From: Nitrospirota bacterium
GTDB lineage: Bacteria > Nitrospirota > UBA9217
Direction: 5' to 3'
DNA length: 64,000 nucleotides
Assembly (NCBI GenBank): GCA_035516175.1
Contig: DATJAO010000038.1
Coordinates: 28,427 to 92,426, forward strand
Shown here: one piece after another, positions 52,733 through 64,000 of the stretch
How positions within the stretch are numbered: position 1 is the stretch's first letter
Layout of the letters: each line of letters starts with the position of its first letter
The notes under the pieces: generated by a model
The model's input: the letters and a program-made list of their open reading frames with translations, nothing else
Databases searched by the model: none
What the model was told of the DNA's origin: nothing
Position numbers and translations under genes: made by a program

Positions 52733-53041
52733 TTAATCTTCTTTCGGGCCTCTCAGCGTAACGATCGTCGCTCCCCATCCTCCTGCATCTTCCTCAGCGG
52801 TCCGAAATGACTCTACATAAGGCAGCTTTTCAAGAATCGACTGCACAGTACGCCTGAGTGTTCCATTTCCTTTTCCGTGAATGATCCGCACCTGGAGGAT
52901 GCCGTGCTCACGGCAGGCGATAAGATAGTCCGGCACGATATCCTTCACTTCACCCGGATGAAAAGTGTGAAGGTCAAGAGTTCCGTCTATGGGTTGTTCA
53001 ATTGGATCGATAATCATCATATGCCGATGATAGCGAGGCAT
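52733..53041 (-). CDS. Smr (small MutS-related) domain protein
   Basis: 102 aa. Smr signature ([11 protein letters not shown]...[14 protein letters not shown]). Confidence 0.7.
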
Positions 53042-53514: not shown

Positions 53515-54228
53515 TTGAAGAACTATCTGTTTATCCACGGCGCATTGCGCGGGGCCTGGCTGTGGGACCGCGTTATCCCTCTTATGCAGAAGAAGGGTGG
53601 GGCGAACATCATCGCTCTCGACCTCCCCGGCCATGGTAAAAGGGCCGCCGAACGGGCGGGAGTGGACATGAGTGCGTACATCAATGACGTTATTTCCTGT
53701 ATCAAAAAACAGAAACTCACTGATATTATCCTTGTGGGACACAGCATGTCGGGGATAATTATCAGCAAGGTCGCGGAAGGAGTGCCGGAGCGCATTCGCC
53801 ACCTTGTTTATCTTGCTGCAGTGGTGCCGCGCGACGGGGACGCGCTCATCGACCTGCTTACGAAAGAACGGCAGGAGAGTCTTCGCAAGCTGGAGGGCAA
53901 GGTTTCGGATATTTATGGGCCGATCGATGCGCTCAGGCCGCTCTATTTCACAGATCTGCCGGACGGCGAGGAGAAAGAGTCTTTCCTAAAACAGCTGACG
54001 CCGCAGCCTCTCGCTGCTTTCTTTGAAAAGATAACACTCAAACGTTTTTACGATCTGAAAATTCCGAGGATCTATGTGATGGGTCTGAGGGATAAGAGTC
54101 TGCCGCCTGAGCTTACGAGAGGCTTCGCCGACCGGCTCGGCGTGGAGCCTGTTGAGATCGACGCAGGCCACGATATGATGATCTCACGGCCAGAAGAAGT
54201 TGCCAAAGTCCTGCTGAACATACCATGA
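53515..54228 (+). CDS. Alpha/beta-fold hydrolase (methylesterase/hydroxynitrile-lyase-like)
   Basis: YLFIHGA oxyanion-region motif, nucleophile elbow GHSMSG, catalytic His near the C-terminus (GHDMMISRP). Confidence 0.7.
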   Translation: MKNYLFIHGALRGAWLWDRVIPLMQKKGGANIIALDLPGHGKRAAERAGVDMSAYINDVISCIKKQKLTDIILVGHSMSGIIISKVAEGVPERIRHLVYLAAVVPRDGDALIDLLTKERQESLRKLEGKVSDIYGPIDALRPLYFTDLPDGEEKESFLKQLTPQPLAAFFEKITLKRFYDLKIPRIYVMGLRDKSLPPELTRGFADRLGVEPVEIDAGHDMMISRPEEVAKVLLNIP

Positions 54229-54514
54229 GTGCAACGATTGAGGGCGATTGGCAACTTACGGCCCAAATTCTTGCCAAAATGGCGCAAAAAATCACAAAGC
54301 CTGTATCCTCACTGGTAGCACCAAAGGTAGCATTATCATTGATACGACACTGAATTTTAGCCGCGAACAGGCATAGCAGTTAACTCTGGTCCTTTTCCCC
54401 GCTACAGCAGGTTTTTTATCTCTCATTTCAAATTTGCTCCGCTCCGTTAGCGTCTTCCCCAAAATCTGGTATAATATAAAATGAATAAGCAGGGACATCG
54501 TGAAGGAGCGGACC

Positions 54515-55291
54515 ATGGCAACCATGACAAATGAAAGCTTGCTGAATGAGAGGCACGACGCACTAGTACACATGAAAAATCCTGTTAGACTGGTCCTGTT
54601 CACCAGCGATGTGGGATGTGAATCCTGTCCCGATGACCGCAAGCTTGCCCGTGCGATAAAGACCCATTCGCCGAAAATCGCCCTCGAAGAGTACGACTTG
54701 GTGATGGACCGGGACAAAACTACGCAGTACGGTATCAGAAGGGTGCCTGCCATAGTCGTTCAGGGGGAAGAGGGTTACACGGCCGCCTTTTACGGCTTGA
54801 TCGAAAATGTTTTCTTTGGCGTGCTTCTCGATACCATCTTGGCGGTTTCGAAAAAAAAAGTATGGTTCCAGGAAGAGATCAGAAATACCCTGAAGCGGCT
54901 TGTACGGGACGTCAGGATACAAGTATATGTGGAAAGCGATTGTCCTCAGTGCCGGCCCGTGGCAGAAACAGCGATCGGGCTGGCGCTGGAAAGCAAACTT
55001 ATTTATACCGATATTATCATTGCGAGTGATTTCCCGGAACTCATAAAAAAATACGATATCAAGACCCTGCCCAAGACTATCTTCGGGGAGAACCTGCACA
55101 TGGACGGCCATGTTACGGAGAGTGAATTCCTGGAGATGATCTTCAAGGCAGAAGGAGTGCTGCCGTCCCAGGCCAAACGATGTCTTACCTGCGGTAAACC
55201 GTCATCGGATCTCATTTGTATGGAATGTAAGACCAGAATACAGGCTGAAGCAGTCGAGCATAAACGCAAAACCGAGAAGGCAACACGATAA
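54515..55291 (+). CDS. Glutaredoxin/thioredoxin-like protein-disulfide oxidoreductase with two thioredoxin-fold units (CESC, CPQC) and a C-terminal Cys4 zinc ribbon
   Basis: Two CxxC active sites (CESCPD; CPQCRP), each preceded by a beta-strand/loop context. C-terminal CLTCGK...CMEC. GAAGGAG RBS before the ATG at 54515. Confidence 0.6.
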   Translation: MATMTNESLLNERHDALVHMKNPVRLVLFTSDVGCESCPDDRKLARAIKTHSPKIALEEYDLVMDRDKTTQYGIRRVPAIVVQGEEGYTAAFYGLIENVFFGVLLDTILAVSKKKVWFQEEIRNTLKRLVRDVRIQVYVESDCPQCRPVAETAIGLALESKLIYTDIIIASDFPELIKKYDIKTLPKTIFGENLHMDGHVTESEFLEMIFKAEGVLPSQAKRCLTCGKPSSDLICMECKTRIQAEAVEHKRKTEKATR

Positions 55292-55385
55292 AGCGTATCG
55301 ACTGAATCATTCCCGCGACATTTATCGAGATCGAGGGAAGAGACCTTGGATCCTGTTCATCCAGTCTCATGCAAGGTATTGATCT

Positions 55386-56396
55386 ATGAAGGAAGCAATG
55401 TTCCAGGAGGCGCGAGAAGGGAACAAGGTGCAGTGTGCTCTCTGCAGCCACCGCTGCCTCATCTCTCCCGGGAAACGGGGCATCTGTGCCGTACGGGAGA
55501 ACAGGGACGGCACCCTCTATAGCCTTGTGTATGATAAGGTGATAGCACAGAATATCGACCCTATCGAGAAGAAGCCGCTCTTTCATTTTCAGCCCGGCAG
55601 CCTGTCCTATTCCATCGCGACGCCTGGTTGTAACTTCCGGTGCAGACATTGCCAAAATGCCGATATCTCACAACTCCCCCGTGACCATGGAGGTGTCGTC
55701 CTCGGGGAGGAGGTGGCGCCGTCCGCCATAGTTGCCAACGCTCTCAAGACCCGCTGCACAAGCATTTCATACACCTACACAGAACCTACGATCTACTTCG
55801 AACTTGCCTATGACACGGCTCGTCTGGCAGTCGAGGCAGGGCTCAGGAACGTGTTCGTGACGAATGGATACATCACGCCTGAGGCTCTCGATGTGATCCG
55901 GCCGTATCTCCATGCTGCGAATATCGATCTCAAAGGGTTTACGGATGATTTTTACAAGAACATCTGCGGCGCCAGGCTTCAGCCCGTGCTCGATGCGATC
56001 AGGCTCTATAAGGAATTCGGAATCTGGATCGAGATTACCACGCTTGTCATCCCCGGCCACAACGATTCAGATGAAGAGCTCAGAGGCATCGCAAGATTCA
56101 TCAGATCAGTGGGCGAGGATATTCCCTGGCATGTTACAAGGTTCCATCCCACGTATAAGCTGATAGATCAACCGCGTACGCCTCTCGCTACATTAAAGCG
56201 CGCGCAGAAGATCGGTTTCGAGGCAGGGCTTAGATACGTGTATGAGGGCAACATCCCAGGAGAGGGTGAGGATACGGTATGCTGGAGCTGCAAAAAGCCG
56301 CTCGTCAAACGGATCGGGTTCTCTGTTGAGGAGAACAGGATAAAAGAGGGAAAATGTTCTTACTGCAGTGTGGTAATTGACGGGGTGTGGGGATAG
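55386..56396 (+). CDS. Radical SAM enzyme of the AmmeMemoRadiSam (PflA-like) type
   Basis: CNFRCRHCQN CxxxCxxC cluster. N-terminal QCALCSHRCLISPGKRGICAVREN second Cys cluster and IDPIEKKPLFHFQPGS motif, both characteristic of the AmmeMemoSam_rS subfamily. Confidence 0.65.
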   Translation: MKEAMFQEAREGNKVQCALCSHRCLISPGKRGICAVRENRDGTLYSLVYDKVIAQNIDPIEKKPLFHFQPGSLSYSIATPGCNFRCRHCQNADISQLPRDHGGVVLGEEVAPSAIVANALKTRCTSISYTYTEPTIYFELAYDTARLAVEAGLRNVFVTNGYITPEALDVIRPYLHAANIDLKGFTDDFYKNICGARLQPVLDAIRLYKEFGIWIEITTLVIPGHNDSDEELRGIARFIRSVGEDIPWHVTRFHPTYKLIDQPRTPLATLKRAQKIGFEAGLRYVYEGNIPGEGEDTVCWSCKKPLVKRIGFSVEENRIKEGKCSYCSVVIDGVWG

Positions 56397-56500
56397 GACG
56401 GAATACAGGAGTCAGAAGGCAGAAGTCAAATAGAAACGGATAGCCTCAGAATTTAGCGTGAGGATTAACGGTCATAAAAAGTGTCTGAACAGACTATTCG

Positions 56501-56914
56501 ATGGCTCAATTCGAGACCTTTGAACATGAGGCGGATATTGGCATACGCGGGTTCGGTGGCAGTATAAAGGAAGCCTTCGAGAACGCAGCAGTTGCGCTGT
56601 ATTCCGTAATGGTGAATATCGACGCCGTAAATCATGTGGAGGAGAGGACCGTTACGGTCTCGGCACCTGACCGCGAACTCCTTTTGGTGGAATGGTTGAA
56701 CGCGTTGCTTGCGATTTCCGATATCGAACGGATGGTCTTCTCGAAGTTTGAAGTGGAGATGGAAGGAACGACGCTCACCGGTGTTGCAAGGGGGGAGACC
56801 CTGGACCGGGACCGGCATGAACCCCACGTGGAAGTAAAGGGCGCCACGTATTATATGTTGAGCGTGAAGGAGCAGGACGGCGTATACACGGCGCAGTGTG
56901 TGGTGGATGTATAG
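56501..56914 (+). CDS. Archease (RtcB ligase cofactor/chaperone)
   Basis: FETFEHEADIGIRGFG N-terminal archease signature. 137 aa. Immediately upstream of rtcB. Confidence 0.8.
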   Translation: MAQFETFEHEADIGIRGFGGSIKEAFENAAVALYSVMVNIDAVNHVEERTVTVSAPDRELLLVEWLNALLAISDIERMVFSKFEVEMEGTTLTGVARGETLDRDRHEPHVEVKGATYYMLSVKEQDGVYTAQCVVDV

Positions 56915-57062
56915 CAGTATGCACCAAAGGCCGAGTACGAAGCTGCAAGTTCAGAATTCCATTAAATCTGGTAGCTGAACTTAATTTGTAATATGGAATT
57001 TGGTGTTTGCAATGCGGGCCTGCACACCAAGTGAAGTTTACTTGGTGTGCAGGAGTGATCAG

Positions 57063-58493
57063 ATGGACCTCAAAGCGGTGCATAGGATTAACGACTACCT
57101 CTGGGAGATCCCGAAGCAAGGTGAGATGCGCGTTCCCGGCAGGATATTCGCGAGCGAAAAGCTGATCCGGGACATGGACGAAAAGGTTCGCGAGCAAGTC
57201 ACGAACGTCGCAATGCTTCCGGGCATTCAGGTCGCATCGATCGCCATGCCTGACGCGCACTGGGGCTACGGCTTTCCCATAGGCGGCGTAGCGGCGTTCG
57301 ATCCGGACGAGGGTGGTATCATTTCCATGGGTGGCGTGGGCTTCGACATCTCCTGCGGCGTGCGGACCATGAAGACCGGCATGACGCGGGAAGAGATTAT
57401 GCCGCGGCTCAAAACGCTCGTTGATGAACTCTTCCGTCGTGTGCCGGCCGGCCTGGGATCCGAGGGGCTTATCAAACTTACGCCTGGTCAGATCGACGAA
57501 ATGCTGCTCGGCGGCGCGGAGTGGGCCCTGCGGAAGGGCTACGGCGTGAAAGAGGACTTGGCATATATCGAGGAGCACGGCAGGATCGACGGCGCGGAGC
57601 CAGACCATGTTTCGGACACAGCAAAAAAACGCCAATACCGCGAGATGGGCACACTCGGTTCGGGTAACCATTACCTCGAGGTGCAGGTCGTGGCTGACAT
57701 CTATGATGAGAGGACGGCGCAGGCGATGGGCCTCAGGAAAGACGACGTCGTGGTCTCCGTTCATTGCGGTTCAAGGGGACTGGGGCACCAGATCGGGACC
57801 GATTATTTAAAGAGCCTCGCCTTTACCCTTCAGAAATACAACATTTCTATCAAAGACCGCGAACTGGCGTGCGCCCCGATCAACTCGCCTGAGGGAAAGA
57901 GATATTTCGGCGCCATGTCTGCAGGCATAAACTGCGCCCTGGCCAACCGGCAGATCATCACTCACCTGGTGCGCGAGATATTCACTGAGGTCTATCCCGA
58001 AGGACGCATCAAGATGCTCTACGATATTAGCCACAATACGTGCAAGGTAGAAACCCATACGGTAAATGGAAAGAAGAAAAGATTGCATGTTCATCGTAAA
58101 GGCGCAACGAGGGCCTTCGGACCAGACCAGATCGACCTTCCCGTTGAATACAGGAACGTGGGACAGCCCGTGCTCATCGGCGGCACTATGGGAACGTCAT
58201 CGTACATCCTTGTCGGGACCAAAGAAGGGATGCAGTCTGCTTTCGGGTCCGCATGTCATGGAGCAGGCAGGGCTATGTCCCGCACCCAGGCAAAGAAGAG
58301 GTGGCATGGCAGGGAGGTCGTGAAAGATCTGGAAGGGATAGGCATTCTGGTTCGGGGACACTCATACGCCGGGATCGCCGAAGAAGCGCCGGAGTCGTAC
58401 AAGGACGTCACCGAAGTGGTGGAAGCAGCACACCATGCGAACCTTGCGCGAAAAGTGGCACGAGTCAAGCCGATTGCGTGTGTGAAGGGGTAG
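57063..58493 (+). CDS. rtcB: RNA-splicing ligase RtcB (3'-phosphate/5'-hydroxy nucleic acid ligase)
   Basis: RtcB motifs AMPDAHWGYGFPIGGV, GSGNHY, catalytic His region SACHGAGR. ~476 aa. Confidence 0.9.
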   Translation: MDLKAVHRINDYLWEIPKQGEMRVPGRIFASEKLIRDMDEKVREQVTNVAMLPGIQVASIAMPDAHWGYGFPIGGVAAFDPDEGGIISMGGVGFDISCGVRTMKTGMTREEIMPRLKTLVDELFRRVPAGLGSEGLIKLTPGQIDEMLLGGAEWALRKGYGVKEDLAYIEEHGRIDGAEPDHVSDTAKKRQYREMGTLGSGNHYLEVQVVADIYDERTAQAMGLRKDDVVVSVHCGSRGLGHQIGTDYLKSLAFTLQKYNISIKDRELACAPINSPEGKRYFGAMSAGINCALANRQIITHLVREIFTEVYPEGRIKMLYDISHNTCKVETHTVNGKKKRLHVHRKGATRAFGPDQIDLPVEYRNVGQPVLIGGTMGTSSYILVGTKEGMQSAFGSACHGAGRAMSRTQAKKRWHGREVVKDLEGIGILVRGHSYAGIAEEAPESYKDVTEVVEAAHHANLARKVARVKPIACVKG

Positions 58494-58828
58494 GTGTAGC
58501 TTCTTTTACAGCGACATTCGCCGCAATGATCCGCTGACCGTGCTGCGGCAGCTTGTTATGCCTCAAATAATTTATCATACGACCCACGCGGCGAATACAT
58601 AATGATCGCCATTCCAAGCAAAGTCTCGATGCTCCAATGATGATAAATCTATCAGGTGCTATTTTTAGCAACTTGCCAACCCCGGAGGATTGAAAGAATA
58701 ATAAGCACTCCGCCATATGCTGCATATGTGATAAAGCAGTACCTGCGAAGTATCAGCCATGATAGCAGCTCGTTCTTTTCGACCTCAATCAAATTCTGCT
58801 CAACGCATACGTCGATTAATGTGAGAAT

Positions 58829-60337
58829 TTACTCCGTGTTCATCTTCGCGGCAGTGCCGGCGAGCGGGGCACGGTTCCACCACCCACCGCCAAGCGCCTG
58901 GAACAACGCTGCCGTATCAGCAAAGCGCGCGGCCTGCGCCTGGACGAGGCCGATCCGCGCTTCCTGGTACTGGCGCTCGGCGTTCAGCAGTGAGAGGTAA
59001 CTCACGGAGCCGAGCCTGAACTGCGTCTGGGTCAGGTCGAGCGTTTCGCGCGCGGCCGCTTCACTGTCCGCCTGTGCCTTGAGTGTACTCGCATCCTCTT
59101 CCAGTGCGCGCAGCACGTCTGCCACATTCTGAAACGCCTGCAAAATGGTCGACTGATACTGTGTCATCGCCTGATCGTGGGCGGCGACTGCAGCCCGGCG
59201 CTTAGCAGAAAGCTCCCCACCGTTAAAGATGGGCTGCAACAAACCTGCGCCAAGACTCCACACCGCTGTTTTGTCGGAGAAAAGCGTGTTGCTTGCGGTA
59301 GTCATTGACCCATAACTTCCGGTAAGCGTTATCTGCGGGTATTGGTTCGCCGTGGCCACGCCAACCTGTGCACTCGCCGCGTGCAATAGCGCTTCCGAAG
59401 CGCGGATGTCCGGGCGTTGGCGCACGAGCGACGACGGCAGGCTTATTGGCAGTTCATTCGGAAGCTGCAGCCCATCGAGATTGAATTCGGGAAGTACCCC
59501 GGAGTCGGCGGGCATCCTGCCGATAAGTATTGCCAGCTGGTGGCGAGTCTGCCAGAGTCCCTTGCTTAGCGCAGGCAGAGTCGCCCGCGATTGCGCGAGC
59601 TGCGAACGCTGGGCAAGCACGTCGGTTCGCGTTGCCCCACCGAGCCGGTACTGGAGTTCGACTAAGTCGAGCTGCTTCTCCTGCGACGACACTATTTCCC
59701 GCATCGCCTGAATCTGTGCGCGAAGGGACACTTCCTTCACAACAGTAGTGACGACGTTCGACGTAATCGTGAGATAGGCCCCTTCAAGCTGAAAGTATTG
59801 GAAGTCGACCTGGGATTGCAGTGCCTCCAGCTCACGCCGCGCACCACCGAAAAAATCGAGTGCATAGGATACGTTCACCGACGCATTGTAGAGCGTGAAG
59901 GGACTGATGGTTAGATTCGGTAGACCGATCTGGGCGCCCGAGATCTTCTCCCGAGTTGCCAGGACGTTCGCGTTCACATTCGGGTAAAGCGCGGAGCCTA
60001 CCAGCGCATTCATGTTCTCCTGCGCTTGGCGGAGCGTCGCTTGGGCGGTCGCGAGCGTCGGGTTGTCCGTCATGGCCTGACGAACAAGCTGGTCCAGCGC
60101 CGCGGAATGGAACAATGTCCACCATTGGGCGGGAATCTCCTGACCCGGTAGTAGGCGCTGGGCCGCTCCGCCGGGCCCCGGCGCGGAAGCGGTCTCAGAA
60201 GGCAGCGCCGTAGATGTGTACGAAGTCACAACCGGGGCCGCAGGCTCGCGATAATTTGGTCCCACCAGACACCCGGTTAACGCTGCGTCAGAGAGGATGA
60301 CAACTGTCAGAATTCTCAGTGGCAACATGTATGTCAT
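58829..60337 (-). CDS. NodT/OprM-family efflux outer-membrane lipoprotein
   Basis: Start chosen at MTYMLPLRILTVVILSDAALTGC (lipobox LTGC). Two OEP repeats. ~500 aa. Divergent from the HlyD/ABC operon. Confidence 0.8.
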   Translation of the reverse strand: MTYMLPLRILTVVILSDAALTGCLVGPNYREPAAPVVTSYTSTALPSETASAPGPGGAAQRLLPGQEIPAQWWTLFHSAALDQLVRQAMTDNPTLATAQATLRQAQENMNALVGSALYPNVNANVLATREKISGAQIGLPNLTISPFTLYNASVNVSYALDFFGGARRELEALQSQVDFQYFQLEGAYLTITSNVVTTVVKEVSLRAQIQAMREIVSSQEKQLDLVELQYRLGGATRTDVLAQRSQLAQSRATLPALSKGLWQTRHQLAILIGRMPADSGVLPEFNLDGLQLPNELPISLPSSLVRQRPDIRASEALLHAASAQVGVATANQYPQITLTGSYGSMTTASNTLFSDKTAVWSLGAGLLQPIFNGGELSAKRRAAVAAHDQAMTQYQSTILQAFQNVADVLRALEEDASTLKAQADSEAAARETLDLTQTQFRLGSVSYLSLLNAERQYQEARIGLVQAQAARFADTAALFQALGGGWWNRAPLAGTAAKMNTE

Positions 60338-60571
60338 GTCCTTGCACCCCGCGGTTTTATGCGTTCGGTAAAATTTACTATAGTGAAGAAAGAAAGATAA
60401 TTCCTGATCGTAAAGCAATTTCAACCTTTCCTATAAGTATATCATGACACCACACTTGTAATCATATATAATAATATTCATGGCATAGTTCATTACAATT
60501 GAAATTCTTGCTAAAATAGAAAGAAAAAGCCAGCCACAATGGCACCAAGACACAAAGAGAGGAACTCGCTC

Positions 60572-61342
60572 ATGAACAAAAAAAAGAGACCGCCGAAAAT
60601 AATACTTATCGCAGTAGCGGTCGTCATCGTGGCGGCAATCGTGGCAAAGCTCTTATTCTTCCAGGGAGAATTTCTCTATGCAGGAACTCTCGAGGCGACA
60701 AAGGTGGATTTGTCTGCGCAGGTCTCTTCGGCGATCGGGAAGGTGAACGTCCAGGAAGGCGACCACGTCGTGGAAAATCAGGAATTGGTGGTGCTGACAT
60801 GCGAGGATGTCAAGGTCGCGTCGGAGCTGGCGAACGACAACTTCCGACGGACAGTGGGCCTCTACAGAACCGGGACCGCCTCGCAGGAGACGATGGACCA
60901 GGTCAAGTACAAGAAAGACGATGCGGACGTGCGTCTTGGCTGGTGCTCCATCAAATCACCAATTTCGGGCGCGGTCCTCAGTCGCTATCATGAACCGGGC
61001 GAATGGGTGAATCCGGGCACTAAGCTTTTGACGTTAGCGAACATCCGGGATATCTGGGCCTACATTTACGTTCCTCAGCCGGACGTTTCAAGACTCCAGG
61101 CCGGTATGAAACTCAAGGGGTATCTACCGGAACTGAACAATCGAGAATTCGAGGGCACAATCATCAAAATCAACGATGAAGCGGAGTTCACTCCAAAGAA
61201 CGTTCAAACGCGGGCAGAACGTACCCGCCTGGTATACGGTGTGAAAGTAAGCTTTCTTGGTTCGAACGAGCAGGAAATCCTCAAACCGGGAATGACCATT
61301 GAAGTAAAATTGCCTCAAAAATTGAAGAGCCCAATTCTCTGA
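60572..61342 (+). CDS. HlyD-family membrane fusion/secretion protein (short form)
   Basis: AGAGAGGA RBS. N-terminal TM (IILIAVAVVIVAAIVA). Lipoyl-like hairpin (KVNVQEGDHVVENQELVVL...IKSPISGAV). C-terminal beta-barrel. Confidence 0.75.
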   Translation: MNKKKRPPKIILIAVAVVIVAAIVAKLLFFQGEFLYAGTLEATKVDLSAQVSSAIGKVNVQEGDHVVENQELVVLTCEDVKVASELANDNFRRTVGLYRTGTASQETMDQVKYKKDDADVRLGWCSIKSPISGAVLSRYHEPGEWVNPGTKLLTLANIRDIWAYIYVPQPDVSRLQAGMKLKGYLPELNNREFEGTIIKINDEAEFTPKNVQTRAERTRLVYGVKVSFLGSNEQEILKPGMTIEVKLPQKLKSPIL

Positions 61343-61481
61343 AGGCGCGAAGAGGGCTGGAAAAAAACAAATGTCACGGTTAAAAAATAAAAAAACCTGT
61401 GCGAGCTTTGTACCTCGGTGTGGCCTATGACCGCGTCGGTTCAATTTTTAGTTCCACCTGTCCGGGTGACGCAACGCTGAT

Positions 61482-62210
61482 ATGTCGCAGATGCCTGTTA
61501 CCATCTCTGTTCACGGGATACGGAAGGTTTTCGGCACTAACCCCGCATTGGACGGAGTGACGCTCGAATTTTCCTCGGGGTTCATGCACGGCGTCATTGG
61601 TCCCGAGGGTGCCGGGAAGACTACCCTCCTGCGCATCATTCTCGGCTTGATGAAGCCGACGGAAGGAACGGTTGAGTTTCAGCGCGGCGGCGAGCGGCTA
61701 GATTTCGAAACTATCCGTCCAAGCGTAGCGTATATGCCGCAGACGCAAAGCCTCTATCCCGATCTTTCCATCAGCGAGCACCTCGATTTTTTCAAGGAGC
61801 TGTACGGAATACCCGACAATCTCTTTCAAGAAAAACGTGAGGAACTGCTCAATATCACCAGGCTTGGTGAGTTCGTTCAGCGTCCTGCGGGGCAGCTTTC
61901 CGGAGGGATGTACAAGAAGCTGGGGTTGATGTGCGCGCTTTTGAGGTCCCCGGCAGTTATGCTCCTGGACGAACCCACAACCGGCGTGGATCCGATCAGC
62001 CGGCGGGAATTTTGGGCCCTCCTTTATCGCTTGCTGGATCAAAAGATTCTGATTCTCGTGACGACGGCATACATGGATGAAGCGGAGCGATGCGGCCGCG
62101 TGCATCTGTTGGAGCATGGGAAGCTTGTTGCAACGGGCGAGCCGCGTGAACTTCTGGCGCGCGAGGAGGTGCGGAGCTTTGATGAACTTTTCCTCAGGCG
62201 AAACGCATGA
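61482..62210 (+). CDS. ABC transporter ATP-binding protein (ABC-2 exporter, first ATPase)
   Basis: Walker A GPEGAGKTT, signature LSGGMYKKLGL, Walker B LLDEPTTGVD. Confidence 0.85.
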   Translation: MSQMPVTISVHGIRKVFGTNPALDGVTLEFSSGFMHGVIGPEGAGKTTLLRIILGLMKPTEGTVEFQRGGERLDFETIRPSVAYMPQTQSLYPDLSISEHLDFFKELYGIPDNLFQEKREELLNITRLGEFVQRPAGQLSGGMYKKLGLMCALLRSPAVMLLDEPTTGVDPISRREFWALLYRLLDQKILILVTTAYMDEAERCGRVHLLEHGKLVATGEPRELLAREEVRSFDELFLRRNA

Positions 62211-63132
62211 GCGTGAAACCGCGGTGGAGGTGAGAAACCTTTCGGTACGGTTCGGCGATTTCTACGCCGTGAACCGGGTTTCCTTCACTGTACGCCGCGG
62301 CGAAACATTCGGATTTTTAGGAGCTAACGGCGCCGGGAAGACGACCACAATACGAGTACTGTGCGGTTTGCTGCGTCCTACGGAAGGAAACGTACGCGTC
62401 GCCGGGGTGAGTTTCGACCACGGGGAACAGGCGGTCAAGTCCAAGGTCGGATACATGTCCCAGAAATTCACGCTCTACGACGACTTGACAGTCGAGGAGA
62501 ATCTGAGTTTCACGGCGAGTCTCCGTAAACTGGACACGGCAACCTATGTGAGACGTCGTCAGGAATTGTTCGACTTTATCGCTTTTGATCGGCCGCTCAA
62601 CACCATCGTCCGCGACCTGTCCGGTGGAACGAAGCAGCAAGTATCGCTCGCTGCGGCGCTTTTGCACGACCCGGAAATCGTCTTCCTCGATGAGCCGACG
62701 GCCGGCGTGACGCCCGCATCTCGGAGCCGCTTCTGGTCGCTTATTCGAAAGCTTGCCGAAAACGACAAGACGGTCTTCGTGACGACCCATTACATGGACG
62801 AGGCAGAGCAATGTGATCGGATCGCGCTCATGCGGGAAGGGAAGATTCTTGCGCTGGACACGCCGGAAGGTCTGAAGCGGTCGATTTTTCCGATGCCGAT
62901 GCTTGAGTTCGACCCCAAAAAACCCTTGAGCTACGCCGAGATTTCAGAGTTGGCCGCACATGAGGTTTTTATGTTTTTCGAACCGTATGGCCTCAGATTT
63001 CACGCCTCGTTTCGAAGCGAAGACGGATGGGAAAGGGTCAGGCCGTTCTTCGAAGAGAAATTCACGATCCGCCAAATAAAGCCATCACTTGAGGATGTGT
63101 TTATTCAAACCGTGGAGAGCAAAGTCGAATGA
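62182..63132 (+). CDS. ABC transporter ATP-binding protein (second ATPase, with C-terminal extension)
   Basis: Walker A GANGAGKTT, signature LSGGTKQQVSLA, Walker B VFLDEPTAGV. Start chosen at MNFSSGE (29-nt overlap with the upstream gene). The track ORF extends upstream from 62077 into the previous gene. Confidence 0.8.
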   Translation: MNFSSGETHERETAVEVRNLSVRFGDFYAVNRVSFTVRRGETFGFLGANGAGKTTTIRVLCGLLRPTEGNVRVAGVSFDHGEQAVKSKVGYMSQKFTLYDDLTVEENLSFTASLRKLDTATYVRRRQELFDFIAFDRPLNTIVRDLSGGTKQQVSLAAALLHDPEIVFLDEPTAGVTPASRSRFWSLIRKLAENDKTVFVTTHYMDEAEQCDRIALMREGKILALDTPEGLKRSIFPMPMLEFDPKKPLSYAEISELAAHEVFMFFEPYGLRFHASFRSEDGWERVRPFFEEKFTIRQIKPSLEDVFIQTVESKVE

Positions 63133-64000
63133 AGACCTTTGTCTGGCGCAGAGCAGCCGCTGTTTCCAGGAAAGAGGTTTTTCACATCCTGCGAGACCCC
63201 TATACCTTGGGGTCGGCGCTCGGGTTGCCGGTTTTCATGGTCATCATGTTCGGCGTCGCTATCGAGTTCAACGTGAAAAACGTCGCTCTTGCGGTATGCG
63301 ATTCGGACCAGACGCAAAGCTCCCGCAGCCTGCTCGACAACTTTGGGAGTTCCCAGTATTTTCTGCTCCACGGGGTTGCTTCACCGTACGAGGCGGTGAC
63401 GGATGTGTCCGCGGAACGCGCGCGTGCCGCGTTGATAATTCCCCCGCGGTTCGAAAAGGACCTCTTCGACGGAAGAGGCGCCGAAGTACAAATGCTGGTA
63501 GACGGTTCCGATAATTCCACGGTGGGGCCAGTGCTGGGTTACATCAGCAGCATTCAAACGATCGCGTCTCGAAGGATTGCCGATTTTGATCCGCCTGCCC
63601 CTTATGAACTTCGAACGCGGTTCCTGTTCAATCCCGAACTAAACAGCCGCTGGTTCGTGATCCCCGGTCTTACTGTCGTGGTCATGTCGATCCTCTCGAT
63701 CCTGCTGACCGCGCTCACTATCGCGCGGGAGTGGGAAAACGGTTCCATGGAACTGCTCTTATCAACGCCCGTGGAGCCGCTCGAAATCATTGTAGGGAAG
63801 CTGGCCCCCTACGGCGCACTCGGGATCATCGCTGTGACTTTCGTCTATGTGATTGCCAGGACTGTATTCGGCATCCCCTTCGTCGGCAATCTGGCGGTCT
63901 TCGGTTTGGGCTGTCTGCTGTTCCTGATGACGTACCTGGCCCAGGGGCTACTCATCTCCGTCGTGACCCGCAAGCAAACAATCGCAATGCAGCTCGCCAT
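63129..64000 (+). CDS. ABC-2 type transporter permease (YhhJ-like), 3' end beyond window
   Basis: The ATG overlaps the upstream TGA (ATGA). N-terminal cytoplasmic segment, TM1, a large periplasmic loop, then clustered TM helices (ABC2_membrane pattern). The frame is open to the window end. Confidence 0.75.
   Translation, partial: MKTFVWRRAAAVSRKEVFHILRDPYTLGSALGLPVFMVIMFGVAIEFNVKNVALAVCDSDQTQSSRSLLDNFGSSQYFLLHGVASPYEAVTDVSAERARAALIIPPRFEKDLFDGRGAEVQMLVDGSDNSTVGPVLGYISSIQTIASRRIADFDPPAPYELRTRFLFNPELNSRWFVIPGLTVVVMSILSILLTALTIAREWENGSMELLLSTPVEPLEIIVGKLAPYGALGIIAVTFVYVIARTVFGIPFVGNLAVFGLGCLLFLMTYLAQGLLISVVTRKQTIAMQLA

What the first reader, a model, noticed from the sequence alone, without database searches (positions are those of the whole stretch)
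54515..58493. rtcB-archease RNA repair pair preceded by an AmmeMemoRadiSam-type radical SAM enzyme (no AMMECR1/MEMO1 partners in view) and a double-thioredoxin zinc-ribbon protein
The radical SAM enzyme (CNFRCRHCQN plus N-terminal QCALCSHRC...CAVREN Cys cluster and IDPIEKKPLFHF) has the hallmarks of the AmmeMemoSam_rS family, whose substrate is unknown. That family normally co-occurs with AMMECR1- and MEMO1-like genes. Here it instead sits in the same orientation directly upstream of archease and RtcB, the RNA 3'-phosphate/5'-OH ligase used in tRNA and mRNA repair. Just before it is a protein with two CxxC thioredoxin folds and a Cys4 zinc ribbon. If the linkage is conserved, it would connect the orphan radical SAM system to RNA repair or tRNA processing.
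Basis: partly seen in the sequence, partly recalled or inferred. Interest (0 to 1): 0.6.

Follow-up and report, generated by a model that had tools for sequence, protein, structure and literature searches.

The report
Thioredoxin, radical SAM, archease, RtcB operon
An uncultured Nitrospirota bacterium keeps an RNA-sealing enzyme (RtcB), its helper (archease), a dedicated double-thioredoxin and an orphan radical SAM enzyme in one conserved operon, a new but indirect clue that the orphan enzyme works on RNA.

Summary
Four same-strand genes lie at 54515-58493:
- a PDO-like double thioredoxin with a Cys4 ribbon;
- a radical SAM (rSAM) enzyme that scores 341 bits on TIGR04337 (cut-off 220), against 56 bits on PflA;
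- archease;
- an archaeal-type RtcB with all catalytic residues.

No AMMECR1 or Memo gene lies within about 80 kb of the source contig.

The four-gene block recurs as a unit, with changing flanks, in every relative examined from this Nitrospirota group, down to 60% thioredoxin identity. Variants lack either the rSAM or archease. Outside that group, rSAM-archease-RtcB adjacency recurs in four further genomes, in three gene orders. It is still a minority context:
- 6 of 80 rSAM loci;
- 0 of 48 loci whose RtcB is under 66% identical.

The thioredoxin is best explained as a redox guardian of RtcB's metal-binding cysteine, as shown for human thioredoxin and RTCB.

The rSAM belongs to the same sequence group (58-63% identical) as copies that lie within 8 kb of AMMECR1 in two other genomes. 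Its fold is PFL-activase-like and its substrate is unknown. An RNA role was already predicted in 2007, and the RtcB context supports it only indirectly.

Verdict: a real, conserved operon; a new variant of RtcB-archease repair modules; moderate interest.

The parts
54447..54475 (+). Promoter-like site: TTAGCG, 17-nt spacer with an extended -10 (TGG TATAAT at 54467-54475), about 40 nt upstream of the first gene
   Evidence: Read directly from the sequence. The consensus scan missed it because the -35 hexamer matches only 3 of 6 positions. No sigma-54 consensus lies upstream. Function is inferred.
54515..55291 (+). PDO-like protein with two thioredoxin folds (CESC, CPQC) and a C-terminal Cys4 zinc ribbon, 258 aa
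   Evidence: PF13192 58 bits; TIGR02187 153.7 bits (below cut-off 185). PDB relatives 2ayt and 1a8l. All eight cysteines are invariant in 9 homologues. The family is small: 312 proteins. Every context examined has RtcB directly downstream in the same block.
55386..56396 (+). AmmeMemoRadiSam-type radical SAM enzyme, 336 aa: N-terminal C17/C20/C24/C34, CX3CX2C at C82/C86/C89, C-terminal C299/C302/C324/C327
   Evidence: TIGR04337 341.4 bits against cut-off 220; PflA 55.9 bits. Cysteines conserved in 79-80 of 80 relatives. The identical protein is named this way in NCBI. The model's best PDB fold match is PFL-activating enzyme 3c8f, target-normalised TM-score 0.76.
56501..56914 (+). Archease, 137 aa
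   Evidence: PF01951 E 1.4e-42; NF001617 143.5 bits (cut-off 126). PDB 4n2p, E 4.9e-30.
57020..57052 (+). 13-bp perfect hairpin whose 3' arm overlaps the rtcB Shine-Dalgarno sequence
   Evidence: Sequence and fold. It is not conserved in relatives, so its role is unknown.
57063..58493 (+). Archaeal/eukaryal-type RNA 3'-phosphate/5'-OH ligase RtcB, 476 aa from the ATG at 57063 (ORF opens at 57000)
   Evidence: PF01139 566 bits. 532 bits to P. horikoshii RtcB over the full length, with metal-binding and GMP-histidine residues conserved. AGGAG lies 7 nt upstream of the ATG at 57063.

Best explanation
This is one operon of an uncultured Nitrospirota bacterium that serves RNA (most likely tRNA) maintenance. 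The order is: promoter, thioredoxin-zinc-ribbon protein, AmmeMemoRadiSam-type rSAM, archease, RtcB.

Established from family knowledge: RtcB seals RNA 2',3'-cyclic-phosphate or 3'-phosphate ends to 5'-OH ends using GTP and Mn2+. Archease accelerates its guanylylation.

Inferred:
- The double thioredoxin with the zinc ribbon is a dedicated thiol reductant. It keeps the metal-binding cysteine of RtcB reduced, or re-reduces it, as human thioredoxin does for RTCB. It may also serve the cysteine chemistry of the rSAM.
- The rSAM is the ordinary family copy, not a specialised paralogue. It has a compact, PFL-activase-like barrel of the kind that accepts macromolecular substrates. It most likely acts on the same RNA pool as the ligase, or on an RNA-processing protein, so selection keeps it co-transcribed with the ligase.
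- Its AMMECR1 and Memo partners, if this genome has them, are encoded elsewhere, as is usual in this phylum.

The chemical reaction of the rSAM remains unknown.
For: Identity of all four genes.

Operon anatomy:
- All four genes are on the same strand.
- No terminator-like site lies between them on the + strand.
- One promoter-like site sits in front of the first gene.
- In relatives the genes overlap: L041 rSAM/archease/RtcB, L089 rSAM/RtcB, L083 thioredoxin/archease.

Conservation as a unit, with differing flanks:
- The full block is in L002, L082, L084, L086 and L087; L001 is cut off after archease and L088 before the rSAM.
- It is also in L166 and L168-L170, found through thioredoxin homologues only 60-63% identical.

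Recurrence outside that group, in other gene orders:
- L041 and L090: rSAM-archease-RtcB.
- L065: rSAM-archease-RtcB.
- L058: archease-RtcB-rSAM.
- L027: rSAM-x-archease-RtcB.
- These fall at four or more places on the rSAM tree.

Thioredoxin role:
- L083 keeps thioredoxin-archease-RtcB without the rSAM.
- The thioredoxin family has only 312 members.
- Human thioredoxin reduces and reactivates oxidised RTCB (PMC10653391).

RNA theme for the rSAM:
- Other conserved neighbours are TsaB with RimI, TsaE with PheT and an ABC-F protein, TruA, and a DEAD-box RNA helicase.
- An RNA base modification was predicted in 2007 (PMC2034487).
Against: - The linkage is a minority context: 6 of 80 rSAM loci, 4 of the 44 with full flanks, and 0 of 48 RtcB loci below 66% identity.
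- Most of the tRNA-related neighbours are convergent or divergent housekeeping genes. They count once per clade and could be chance.
- The commonest operon partner of the rSAM is an uncharacterised class I methyltransferase (16 loci), not an RNA enzyme.
- In Nitrospirota, AMMECR1 is coupled to a polyprenyl synthetase. That points to the alternative published theme, isoprenoid modification.
- The block tolerates loss of the rSAM (L083) and of archease (L085, L089), so no component other than RtcB is obligatory.
- There is no expression or biochemical evidence.
Confidence: 0.5

Rival explanations
1. Synteny without functional coupling. The rSAM is a housekeeping enzyme whose substrate may be an isoprenoid or small molecule. 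It happens to sit in front of archease-rtcB in one abundant Nitrospirota lineage. The few other cases are chance or lateral spread of a convenient gene block.
For: - Linkage is absent from about 90% of sampled rSAM loci and from all 48 more distant RtcB loci.
- L083 has the block without the rSAM.
- AMMECR1 in Nitrospirota is operonic with a polyprenyl synthetase.
- The NJ tree at about 60% identity is poorly resolved, so the number of independent events is uncertain.
Against: - Adjacency survives at rSAM about 60%, RtcB 46-52% and archease about 30% identity. It spans MAGs labelled as different phyla and three gene orders, while the flanks change.
- The sister rSAMs of L041 and L058 have different orders but keep their proximity.
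- Overlapping stop and start codons imply co-translation.
- My own rough estimate: chance proximity within 2.5 kb is of the order of 0.2% per genome, against 4 of 44 observed.
Confidence: 0.3
2. The rSAM is a protein-directed 'activase' whose substrate is RtcB or archease, or AMMECR1 encoded elsewhere. It would install or repair a radical-dependent modification that the ligase needs under anoxic conditions.
For: - The closest sequence and fold relatives are glycyl-radical-enzyme activases, which act on proteins.
- rSAM-RtcB adjacency persists when archease is lost (L085, L089).
Against: - RtcB and archease are active in vitro without any such modification (established knowledge; reviews PMC10630183 and PMC10944509 listed).
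- Seventy-two of the 80 RtcB-centred loci show no rSAM (50 of the 57 with at least 1.6 kb of upstream sequence).
- I did not search RtcB or archease for a glycyl-radical motif.
Confidence: 0.1
3. The rSAM is an ordinary PflA/NrdG-type glycyl-radical-enzyme activase that has been mis-assigned.
For: Weak similarity to PflA (55.9 bits) and NrdG (34.4 bits). JGI names relatives 'pyruvate formate lyase activating enzyme'.
Against: - TIGR04337 scores 341 bits against a cut-off of 220, while every activase model is far below its cut-off.
- The extra N- and C-terminal cysteine clusters are conserved family-wide.
- No glycyl radical enzyme appears among the listed Pfam hits for about 80 kb.
Confidence: 0.02
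4. The block is an anti-phage or RNA-conflict defence system built around a viperin-like rSAM.
For: A weak pVip hit of 26.7 bits. RtcB takes part in conflict-related RNA repair in some systems (my own knowledge).
Against: - The other five proteins have no PADLOC match.
- The flanks are housekeeping genes, and nothing mobile or toxin-like is listed within about 80 kb.
Confidence: 0.03

Closest known systems
RtcB-archease RNA ligation/repair pair (P. horikoshii RtcB and archease; human RTCB-archease)
   Same: Full-length RtcB with all metal-binding and GMP-histidine residues, and an archease gene directly upstream. This is the commonest arrangement among the 80 RtcB loci: 64 have archease.
   Different: Here two further genes, a double thioredoxin with a zinc ribbon and a radical SAM enzyme, precede the pair in the same operon. 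That addition is confined to one Nitrospirota group plus a few scattered genomes.
AmmeMemoRadiSam system (TIGR04337 rSAM, TIGR04335 AMMECR1, TIGR04336 Memo)
   Same: The rSAM is a clear member by HMM score and cysteine clusters. It is 58-63% identical to the copies found within 8 kb of AMMECR1 in L016 and L080.
   Different: No AMMECR1 or Memo gene lies within about 80 kb. The operon partners here are archease, RtcB and a thioredoxin instead.
Thioredoxin and PYROXD1 protection of the metazoan tRNA ligase RTCB
   Same: A thiol oxidoreductase is functionally tied to an RtcB-type ligase whose active-site cysteine is prone to oxidation (PMC10653391, PMC12263435).
   Different: The protein here is a bacterial PDO-like double thioredoxin with a Cys4 ribbon. 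It is genetically linked rather than shown to interact, and its activity on RtcB is untested.
Protein disulfide oxidoreductases of thermophiles (P. furiosus PDO 1a8l, Aquifex 2ayt)
   Same: Two thioredoxin folds, each with a CxxC motif. E 1e-20 to 2e-18.
   Different: It scores below the TIGR02187 cut-off (153.7 against 185) and carries an extra C-terminal zinc ribbon.
Pyruvate formate-lyase activating enzyme (PflA, PDB 3c8f)
   Same: Best sequence and fold match for the rSAM core: E 3.5e-9; Foldseek E 3e-13, target-normalised TM-score 0.76.
   Different: Only 20% identity. The PflA HMM score is far below its cut-off. The rSAM has additional conserved N- and C-terminal cysteine clusters, and no glycyl radical enzyme is nearby.

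Membership tests
AmmeMemoRadiSam system radical SAM enzyme (TIGR04337) | Score above the curated cut-off of the family HMM and better than any other rSAM model | tested here: met
   341.4 bits against cut-off 220; next best is PflA at 55.9 bits.
AmmeMemoRadiSam system radical SAM enzyme (TIGR04337) | CX3CX2C SAM-cluster motif plus the conserved N-terminal and C-terminal cysteine clusters | tested here: met
   C82/C86/C89, C17/C20/C24/C34 and C299/C302/C324/C327 are conserved in 79-80 of 80 relatives.
AmmeMemoRadiSam system radical SAM enzyme (TIGR04337) | AMMECR1 (TIGR04335) and Memo (TIGR04336) genes in the same cassette | tested here: not met
   No PF01871 or PF01875 among the listed Pfam hits for about 80 kb of the contig. 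tblastn is negative. A cassette is also absent from 78 of 80 related loci, so adjacency is not obligatory in these lineages.
AmmeMemoRadiSam system radical SAM enzyme (TIGR04337) | Co-occurrence of AMMECR1 and Memo somewhere in the same genome | not testable with these tools
   Only about 80 kb of the 108.7-kb contig could be read. None of the 120 best AMMECR1 homologues lies on a contig whose length matches a cluster-bearing contig.
RtcB RNA ligase (PF01139) | Family HMM match plus the metal-binding Asp/Cys/His residues and the GMP-accepting histidine | tested here: met
   566 bits. D95, C98, N202, H203, H234, H329 and H404 of P. horikoshii RtcB all align to identical residues.
Archease (PF01951) | Full-length family HMM match | tested here: met
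   E 1.4e-42 over profile positions 1-136 of 136; NF001617 143.5 bits against cut-off 126. PDB 4n2p, E 4.9e-30.
Protein disulfide oxidoreductase (TIGR02187 PDO) | Score above the curated cut-off | tested here: not met
   153.7 bits against cut-off 185. It is therefore PDO-like rather than an equivalog.
Protein disulfide oxidoreductase (TIGR02187 PDO) | Two thioredoxin folds, each with a CxxC motif | tested here: met
   C35/C38 and C143/C146 are invariant in 9 homologues. The protein aligns over both domains of 2ayt and 1a8l.
Glycyl-radical-enzyme activases (PflA TIGR02493, NrdG TIGR02495, PFLE_PFLC TIGR02494) | Score above the family cut-off; a glycyl radical enzyme partner nearby | tested here: not met
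   55.9 against 231.75; 34.4 against 131.15; 39 against 174.35. No such enzyme appears among the listed Pfam hits for about 80 kb.

The most novel reading that the evidence does not exclude
The AmmeMemoRadiSam radical SAM enzyme is a working accessory of RtcB/archease RNA ligation. In this reading it modifies or repairs the tRNA/RNA that RtcB seals, or the ligase machinery itself, with the thioredoxin-zinc-ribbon protein as a dedicated reductant for both. That would give the long-orphan AMMECR1/Memo/rSAM system, which includes human disease-linked homologues, its first concrete RNA substrate class and an experimentally tractable four-gene module.
Probability: 0.25. Interest if true: 0.75.

Novelty: new variant of a known kind. 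Interest (0 to 1): 0.45.

Why it matters
AMMECR1, Memo and their radical SAM partner are conserved from archaea to humans. As far as the searchable literature shows, they still have no known reaction.

A conserved operon that joins the radical SAM member to the RtcB/archease ligase gives a concrete hypothesis to test: an RNA or tRNA substrate. It also gives a small set of proteins to test it with.

Separately, a dedicated thioredoxin in front of RtcB would be a bacterial counterpart of the thioredoxin/PYROXD1 protection recently shown for the human tRNA ligase. If so, redox protection of the RtcB active-site cysteine is an old and general need.

Tried and rejected
- PflA/NrdG activase reading: rejected by the HMM scores.
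- Defence-system reading: PADLOC gives only a 26.7-bit pVip hit for the rSAM.
- RNA elements: no Rfam match at E <= 0.1 in 52-60 kb, and no tRNA genes in the window. There is no sigma-54 promoter as in E. coli rtcBA.
- The hairpin at 57020-57052 is not conserved in relatives.
- Memo search: motif regexes and tblastn with a human MEMO1 sequence recalled from memory found nothing in the window, one 21-kb flanking stretch of the source contig or the 160 loci. This is a weak test; the Pfam tables are the stronger one for the window.
- Same-genome AMMECR1 test: I compared contig-length fingerprints between AMMECR1 hits and cluster-bearing contigs and found no match, which is uninformative.
- Two of the gene look-ups failed because the called start codons differ from my ORF starts.
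- Burroughs et al. 2019 (JBC) and Burroughs and Aravind 2016 (NAR) are not held. I cannot exclude that one of them already lists this gene context.
- The AlphaFold model of the rSAM is only moderate (pLDDT 68.9; residues 1-107 are poor) because the alignment was shallow. Nothing is claimed about the N-terminal cysteine cluster.

Full report
**What is there**

Four same-strand ORFs occupy 54515-58493.

- The first (54515-55291) has two thioredoxin folds, with CESC and CPQC motifs, and a C-terminal Cys4 ribbon. It scores 58 bits on PF13192 and 153.7 bits on the PDO model TIGR02187, below that model's cut-off of 185. It matches solved PDO structures. All eight cysteines are invariant in nine homologues.
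- The second (55386-56396) scores 341.4 bits on TIGR04337 (cut-off 220). PflA scores 55.9 and NrdG 34.4 bits.
- The third (56501-56914) is archease.
- The fourth is an archaeal-type RtcB. It aligns end to end with P. horikoshii RtcB with every catalytic residue conserved. Its likely start is the ATG at 57063, behind an AGGAG Shine-Dalgarno sequence.

**Operon anatomy**

- An extended -10 promoter-like site (TGGTATAAT, 54467-54475) and an AAGGAG Shine-Dalgarno sequence precede the first gene.
- No terminator-like site separates the genes on the + strand.
- The next gene downstream is convergent.
- No Rfam family (E <= 0.1), tRNA gene or sigma-54 promoter is present.
- A 13-bp perfect hairpin overlaps the rtcB Shine-Dalgarno sequence, but it is not conserved in relatives.

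**Source**

The window comes from a 108.7-kb metagenomic contig (ENA ERZ27256514). NCBI already names the identical rSAM protein 'AmmeMemoRadiSam system radical SAM enzyme [Nitrospirota bacterium]'. The precomputed Pfam hits listed for the called genes over about 80 kb of that contig show no AMMECR1 (PF01871), no Memo (PF01875) and no second rSAM. A verified AMMECR1 finds nothing in the window by tblastn.

**Is the linkage conserved? From the rSAM side**

I took 80 species-representative genomes whose rSAM is 58-83% identical.

- Archease and/or RtcB lie on the same strand (archease within 2 kb, RtcB within 2.5 kb) in 6 of them: L001, L002, L027, L041, L058 and L065. That is 4 of the 44 loci with at least 2.5 kb on both sides.
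- Gene orders differ: thioredoxin-rSAM-archease-RtcB; rSAM-archease-RtcB; archease-RtcB-rSAM; and rSAM-x-archease-RtcB.
- The linked loci fall at four or more places on an NJ tree. The sister rSAMs of L041 and L058 have different gene orders.
- The tree is shallow, at about 60% identity, so I do not claim a firm number of independent events.

**From the RtcB side**

I took 80 metagenome loci.

- The rSAM is present in 6 of 7 loci with RtcB at least 70% identical, 1 of 2 at 66-70%, and 0 of 48 below 66%.
- Variants are informative. L083 has thioredoxin-archease-RtcB without the rSAM. L089 (thioredoxin-rSAM-RtcB) and L085 (rSAM-RtcB) lack archease.

**From the thioredoxin side**

- The family has only 312 members.
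- The four contexts I looked up, at 60-63% identity, all show thioredoxin-rSAM-archease-RtcB. The downstream flanks differ: a cation ATPase, a pyruvate kinase, or an SNase-domain gene.

The block is therefore kept as a unit in one abundant Nitrospirota group and recurs sporadically elsewhere. It is still a minority context for both the rSAM and RtcB families.

**AMMECR1 and Memo**

- Among the 80 rSAM loci, AMMECR1 lies within 8 kb in only two, L016 and L080. It was confirmed by PF01871 and TIGR04335.
- Memo was found in none (a weak test).
- In two other Nitrospirota genomes AMMECR1 sits in an operon of an IF-2B-family gene, a polyprenyl synthetase and AMMECR1. No Memo and no rSAM lie within 8 kb. 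L016 appears to share this synteny.
- The three 'system' genes are therefore normally dispersed in this phylum. The rSAM here is 58-63% identical to the copies near AMMECR1, and no genome appeared twice among the 80 loci. I found no sign of a second, AMMECR1-linked rSAM copy. Even so, I could not test whether this genome has AMMECR1 and Memo.

**Other neighbours of the rSAM**

- The commonest is an uncharacterised class I SAM methyltransferase directly upstream and co-directional (16 loci, Desulfobacterota).
- Clade-specific neighbours are: TsaB with RimI; TsaE with PheT and an ABC-F protein; TruA with rplM; and a DEAD-box RNA helicase.
- The tRNA and translation flavour is suggestive. However, most of these genes are convergent or divergent housekeeping genes, and each counts as one event.

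**What the rSAM resembles**

- By sequence and by a moderate-quality model (pLDDT 68.9; the core is good, residues 1-107 are poor), the nearest solved structure is PFL-activating enzyme (E 3.5e-9; target-normalised TM-score 0.76).
- That is a compact barrel of the kind that accepts macromolecular substrates.
- It has three fully conserved cysteine clusters.

**Mechanism**

Shown: the identities of the genes, the operon-like arrangement, and conservation of the block.

Established elsewhere: RtcB chemistry and its activation by archease. Human thioredoxin reduces and reactivates oxidised RTCB, and PYROXD1 protects its cysteine (PMC10653391, PMC12263435).

Inferred:
- The thioredoxin-zinc-ribbon protein is a dedicated redox guardian of RtcB. 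L083 shows that it stays with archease-RtcB when the rSAM is absent.
- The rSAM acts in the same RNA-maintenance context.

What the rSAM does chemically is unknown.

**Rivals**

- Synteny without functional coupling (0.3).
- A protein-directed activase acting on RtcB or archease (0.1).
- An ordinary glycyl-radical-enzyme activase: rejected.
- A defence system: rejected.

**Comparison with the literature**

- Balaji and Aravind (2007) already inferred that AMMECR1, the rSAM and the ring-opening dioxygenase (Memo) catalyse an uncharacterised RNA base modification (PMC2034487).
- From my recollection of its abstract, Burroughs et al. 2019 added nucleotide-base and isoprenoid contexts. A later paper from the same group cites it for the Memo-AMMECR1 systems, but I could not read it.
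- Full-text searches found no paper linking this rSAM or AMMECR1 to RtcB or archease.

**Verdict**

This is a new variant of the RtcB-archease module, with thioredoxin-zinc-ribbon and AmmeMemoRadiSam rSAM accessories. It is a useful but indirect clue to an orphan enzyme system. Interest: 0.45.

Noticed in passing
window 57020-57052: A 13-bp perfect hairpin with a 7-nt loop in the archease-rtcB spacer. Its 3' arm overlaps the rtcB Shine-Dalgarno sequence. It has no U-tract, so it is not terminator-like. Relatives lack it, although L086 and L087 have other strong hairpins in the same spacer.
   Followed up: partly
L083 4783-7431; L089 4162-7431; L085 2-2457: Natural variants of the block. L083 has thioredoxin-archease-RtcB with no rSAM. 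L089 (thioredoxin-rSAM-RtcB) and L085 (rSAM-RtcB) have no archease. In L089 the rSAM stop overlaps the rtcB start.
   Followed up: yes
window 52733-53041 (- strand): A 102-aa Smr-domain protein lies 1.5 kb upstream of the operon. From my own knowledge, Smr domains include RNA endonucleases that act at stalled ribosomes. This neighbour is seen only in the window, not in the relatives.
   Followed up: partly
window 56404-56430; L002 9494-9530; L088 1737-1770: Purine-rich GGAGUCA-like repeats, resembling Shine-Dalgarno sequences, occur in the intergenic spacers of the block in several relatives. In L002 the unit is repeated three times in tandem.
   Followed up: no
L171 5961-8507; L172 5986-8507; L016 3-2270: In Nitrospirota, AMMECR1 (AmmeMemoRadiSam protein A) is directly coupled to a polyprenyl synthetase and preceded by an IF-2B-family gene. 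No Memo or rSAM lies within 8 kb. This fits the published isoprenoid theme rather than the RNA theme.
   Followed up: partly
L019, L020, L030, L031, L037, L038, L043, L052, L054, L055, L062, L063, L070, L071, L077 (directly upstream of the rSAM); L033 (about 5.5 kb away, opposite strand): An uncharacterised class I SAM methyltransferase (PF08241) is the commonest neighbour of this rSAM (16 loci), mostly in Desulfobacterota. In 15 of them it lies directly upstream and co-directional, often overlapping the rSAM start. In some loci a DEAD-box RNA helicase precedes it.
   Followed up: partly
L040, L059, L066 (Bipolaricaulota and an unclassified MAG); L006, L007, L021, L022, L026, L045, L069 (Nitrospirota): The rSAM is flanked by genes of the tRNA t6A37 pathway in two unrelated lineages: TsaE with PheT and an ABC-F protein in one, TsaB with RimI in the other. 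In Desulfobacterota it is flanked by TruA.
   Followed up: partly
L166, L168, L169, L170, upstream of the block: Relatives share upstream synteny that the window lacks: a cNMP-binding protein, Ppx-GppA, a sigma-54-dependent response regulator, and two or three small cytochrome c7 genes. The alpha/beta hydrolase upstream of the block (window 53515-54228) is shared by the window, L082, L089, L169 and L170.
   Followed up: no
window 1-50000 and 58800-64000: The rest of the window is ordinary housekeeping. It includes the end of a lipid A gene cluster (LpxK; the rest lies just upstream of the window), a chemotaxis cluster (about 22-30 kb), Fur/FeoB/FeoA, RecJ, RelA/SpoT, two OEP/MFP/ABC efflux sets, and multihaem cytochromes just beyond the window end.
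   Followed up: no
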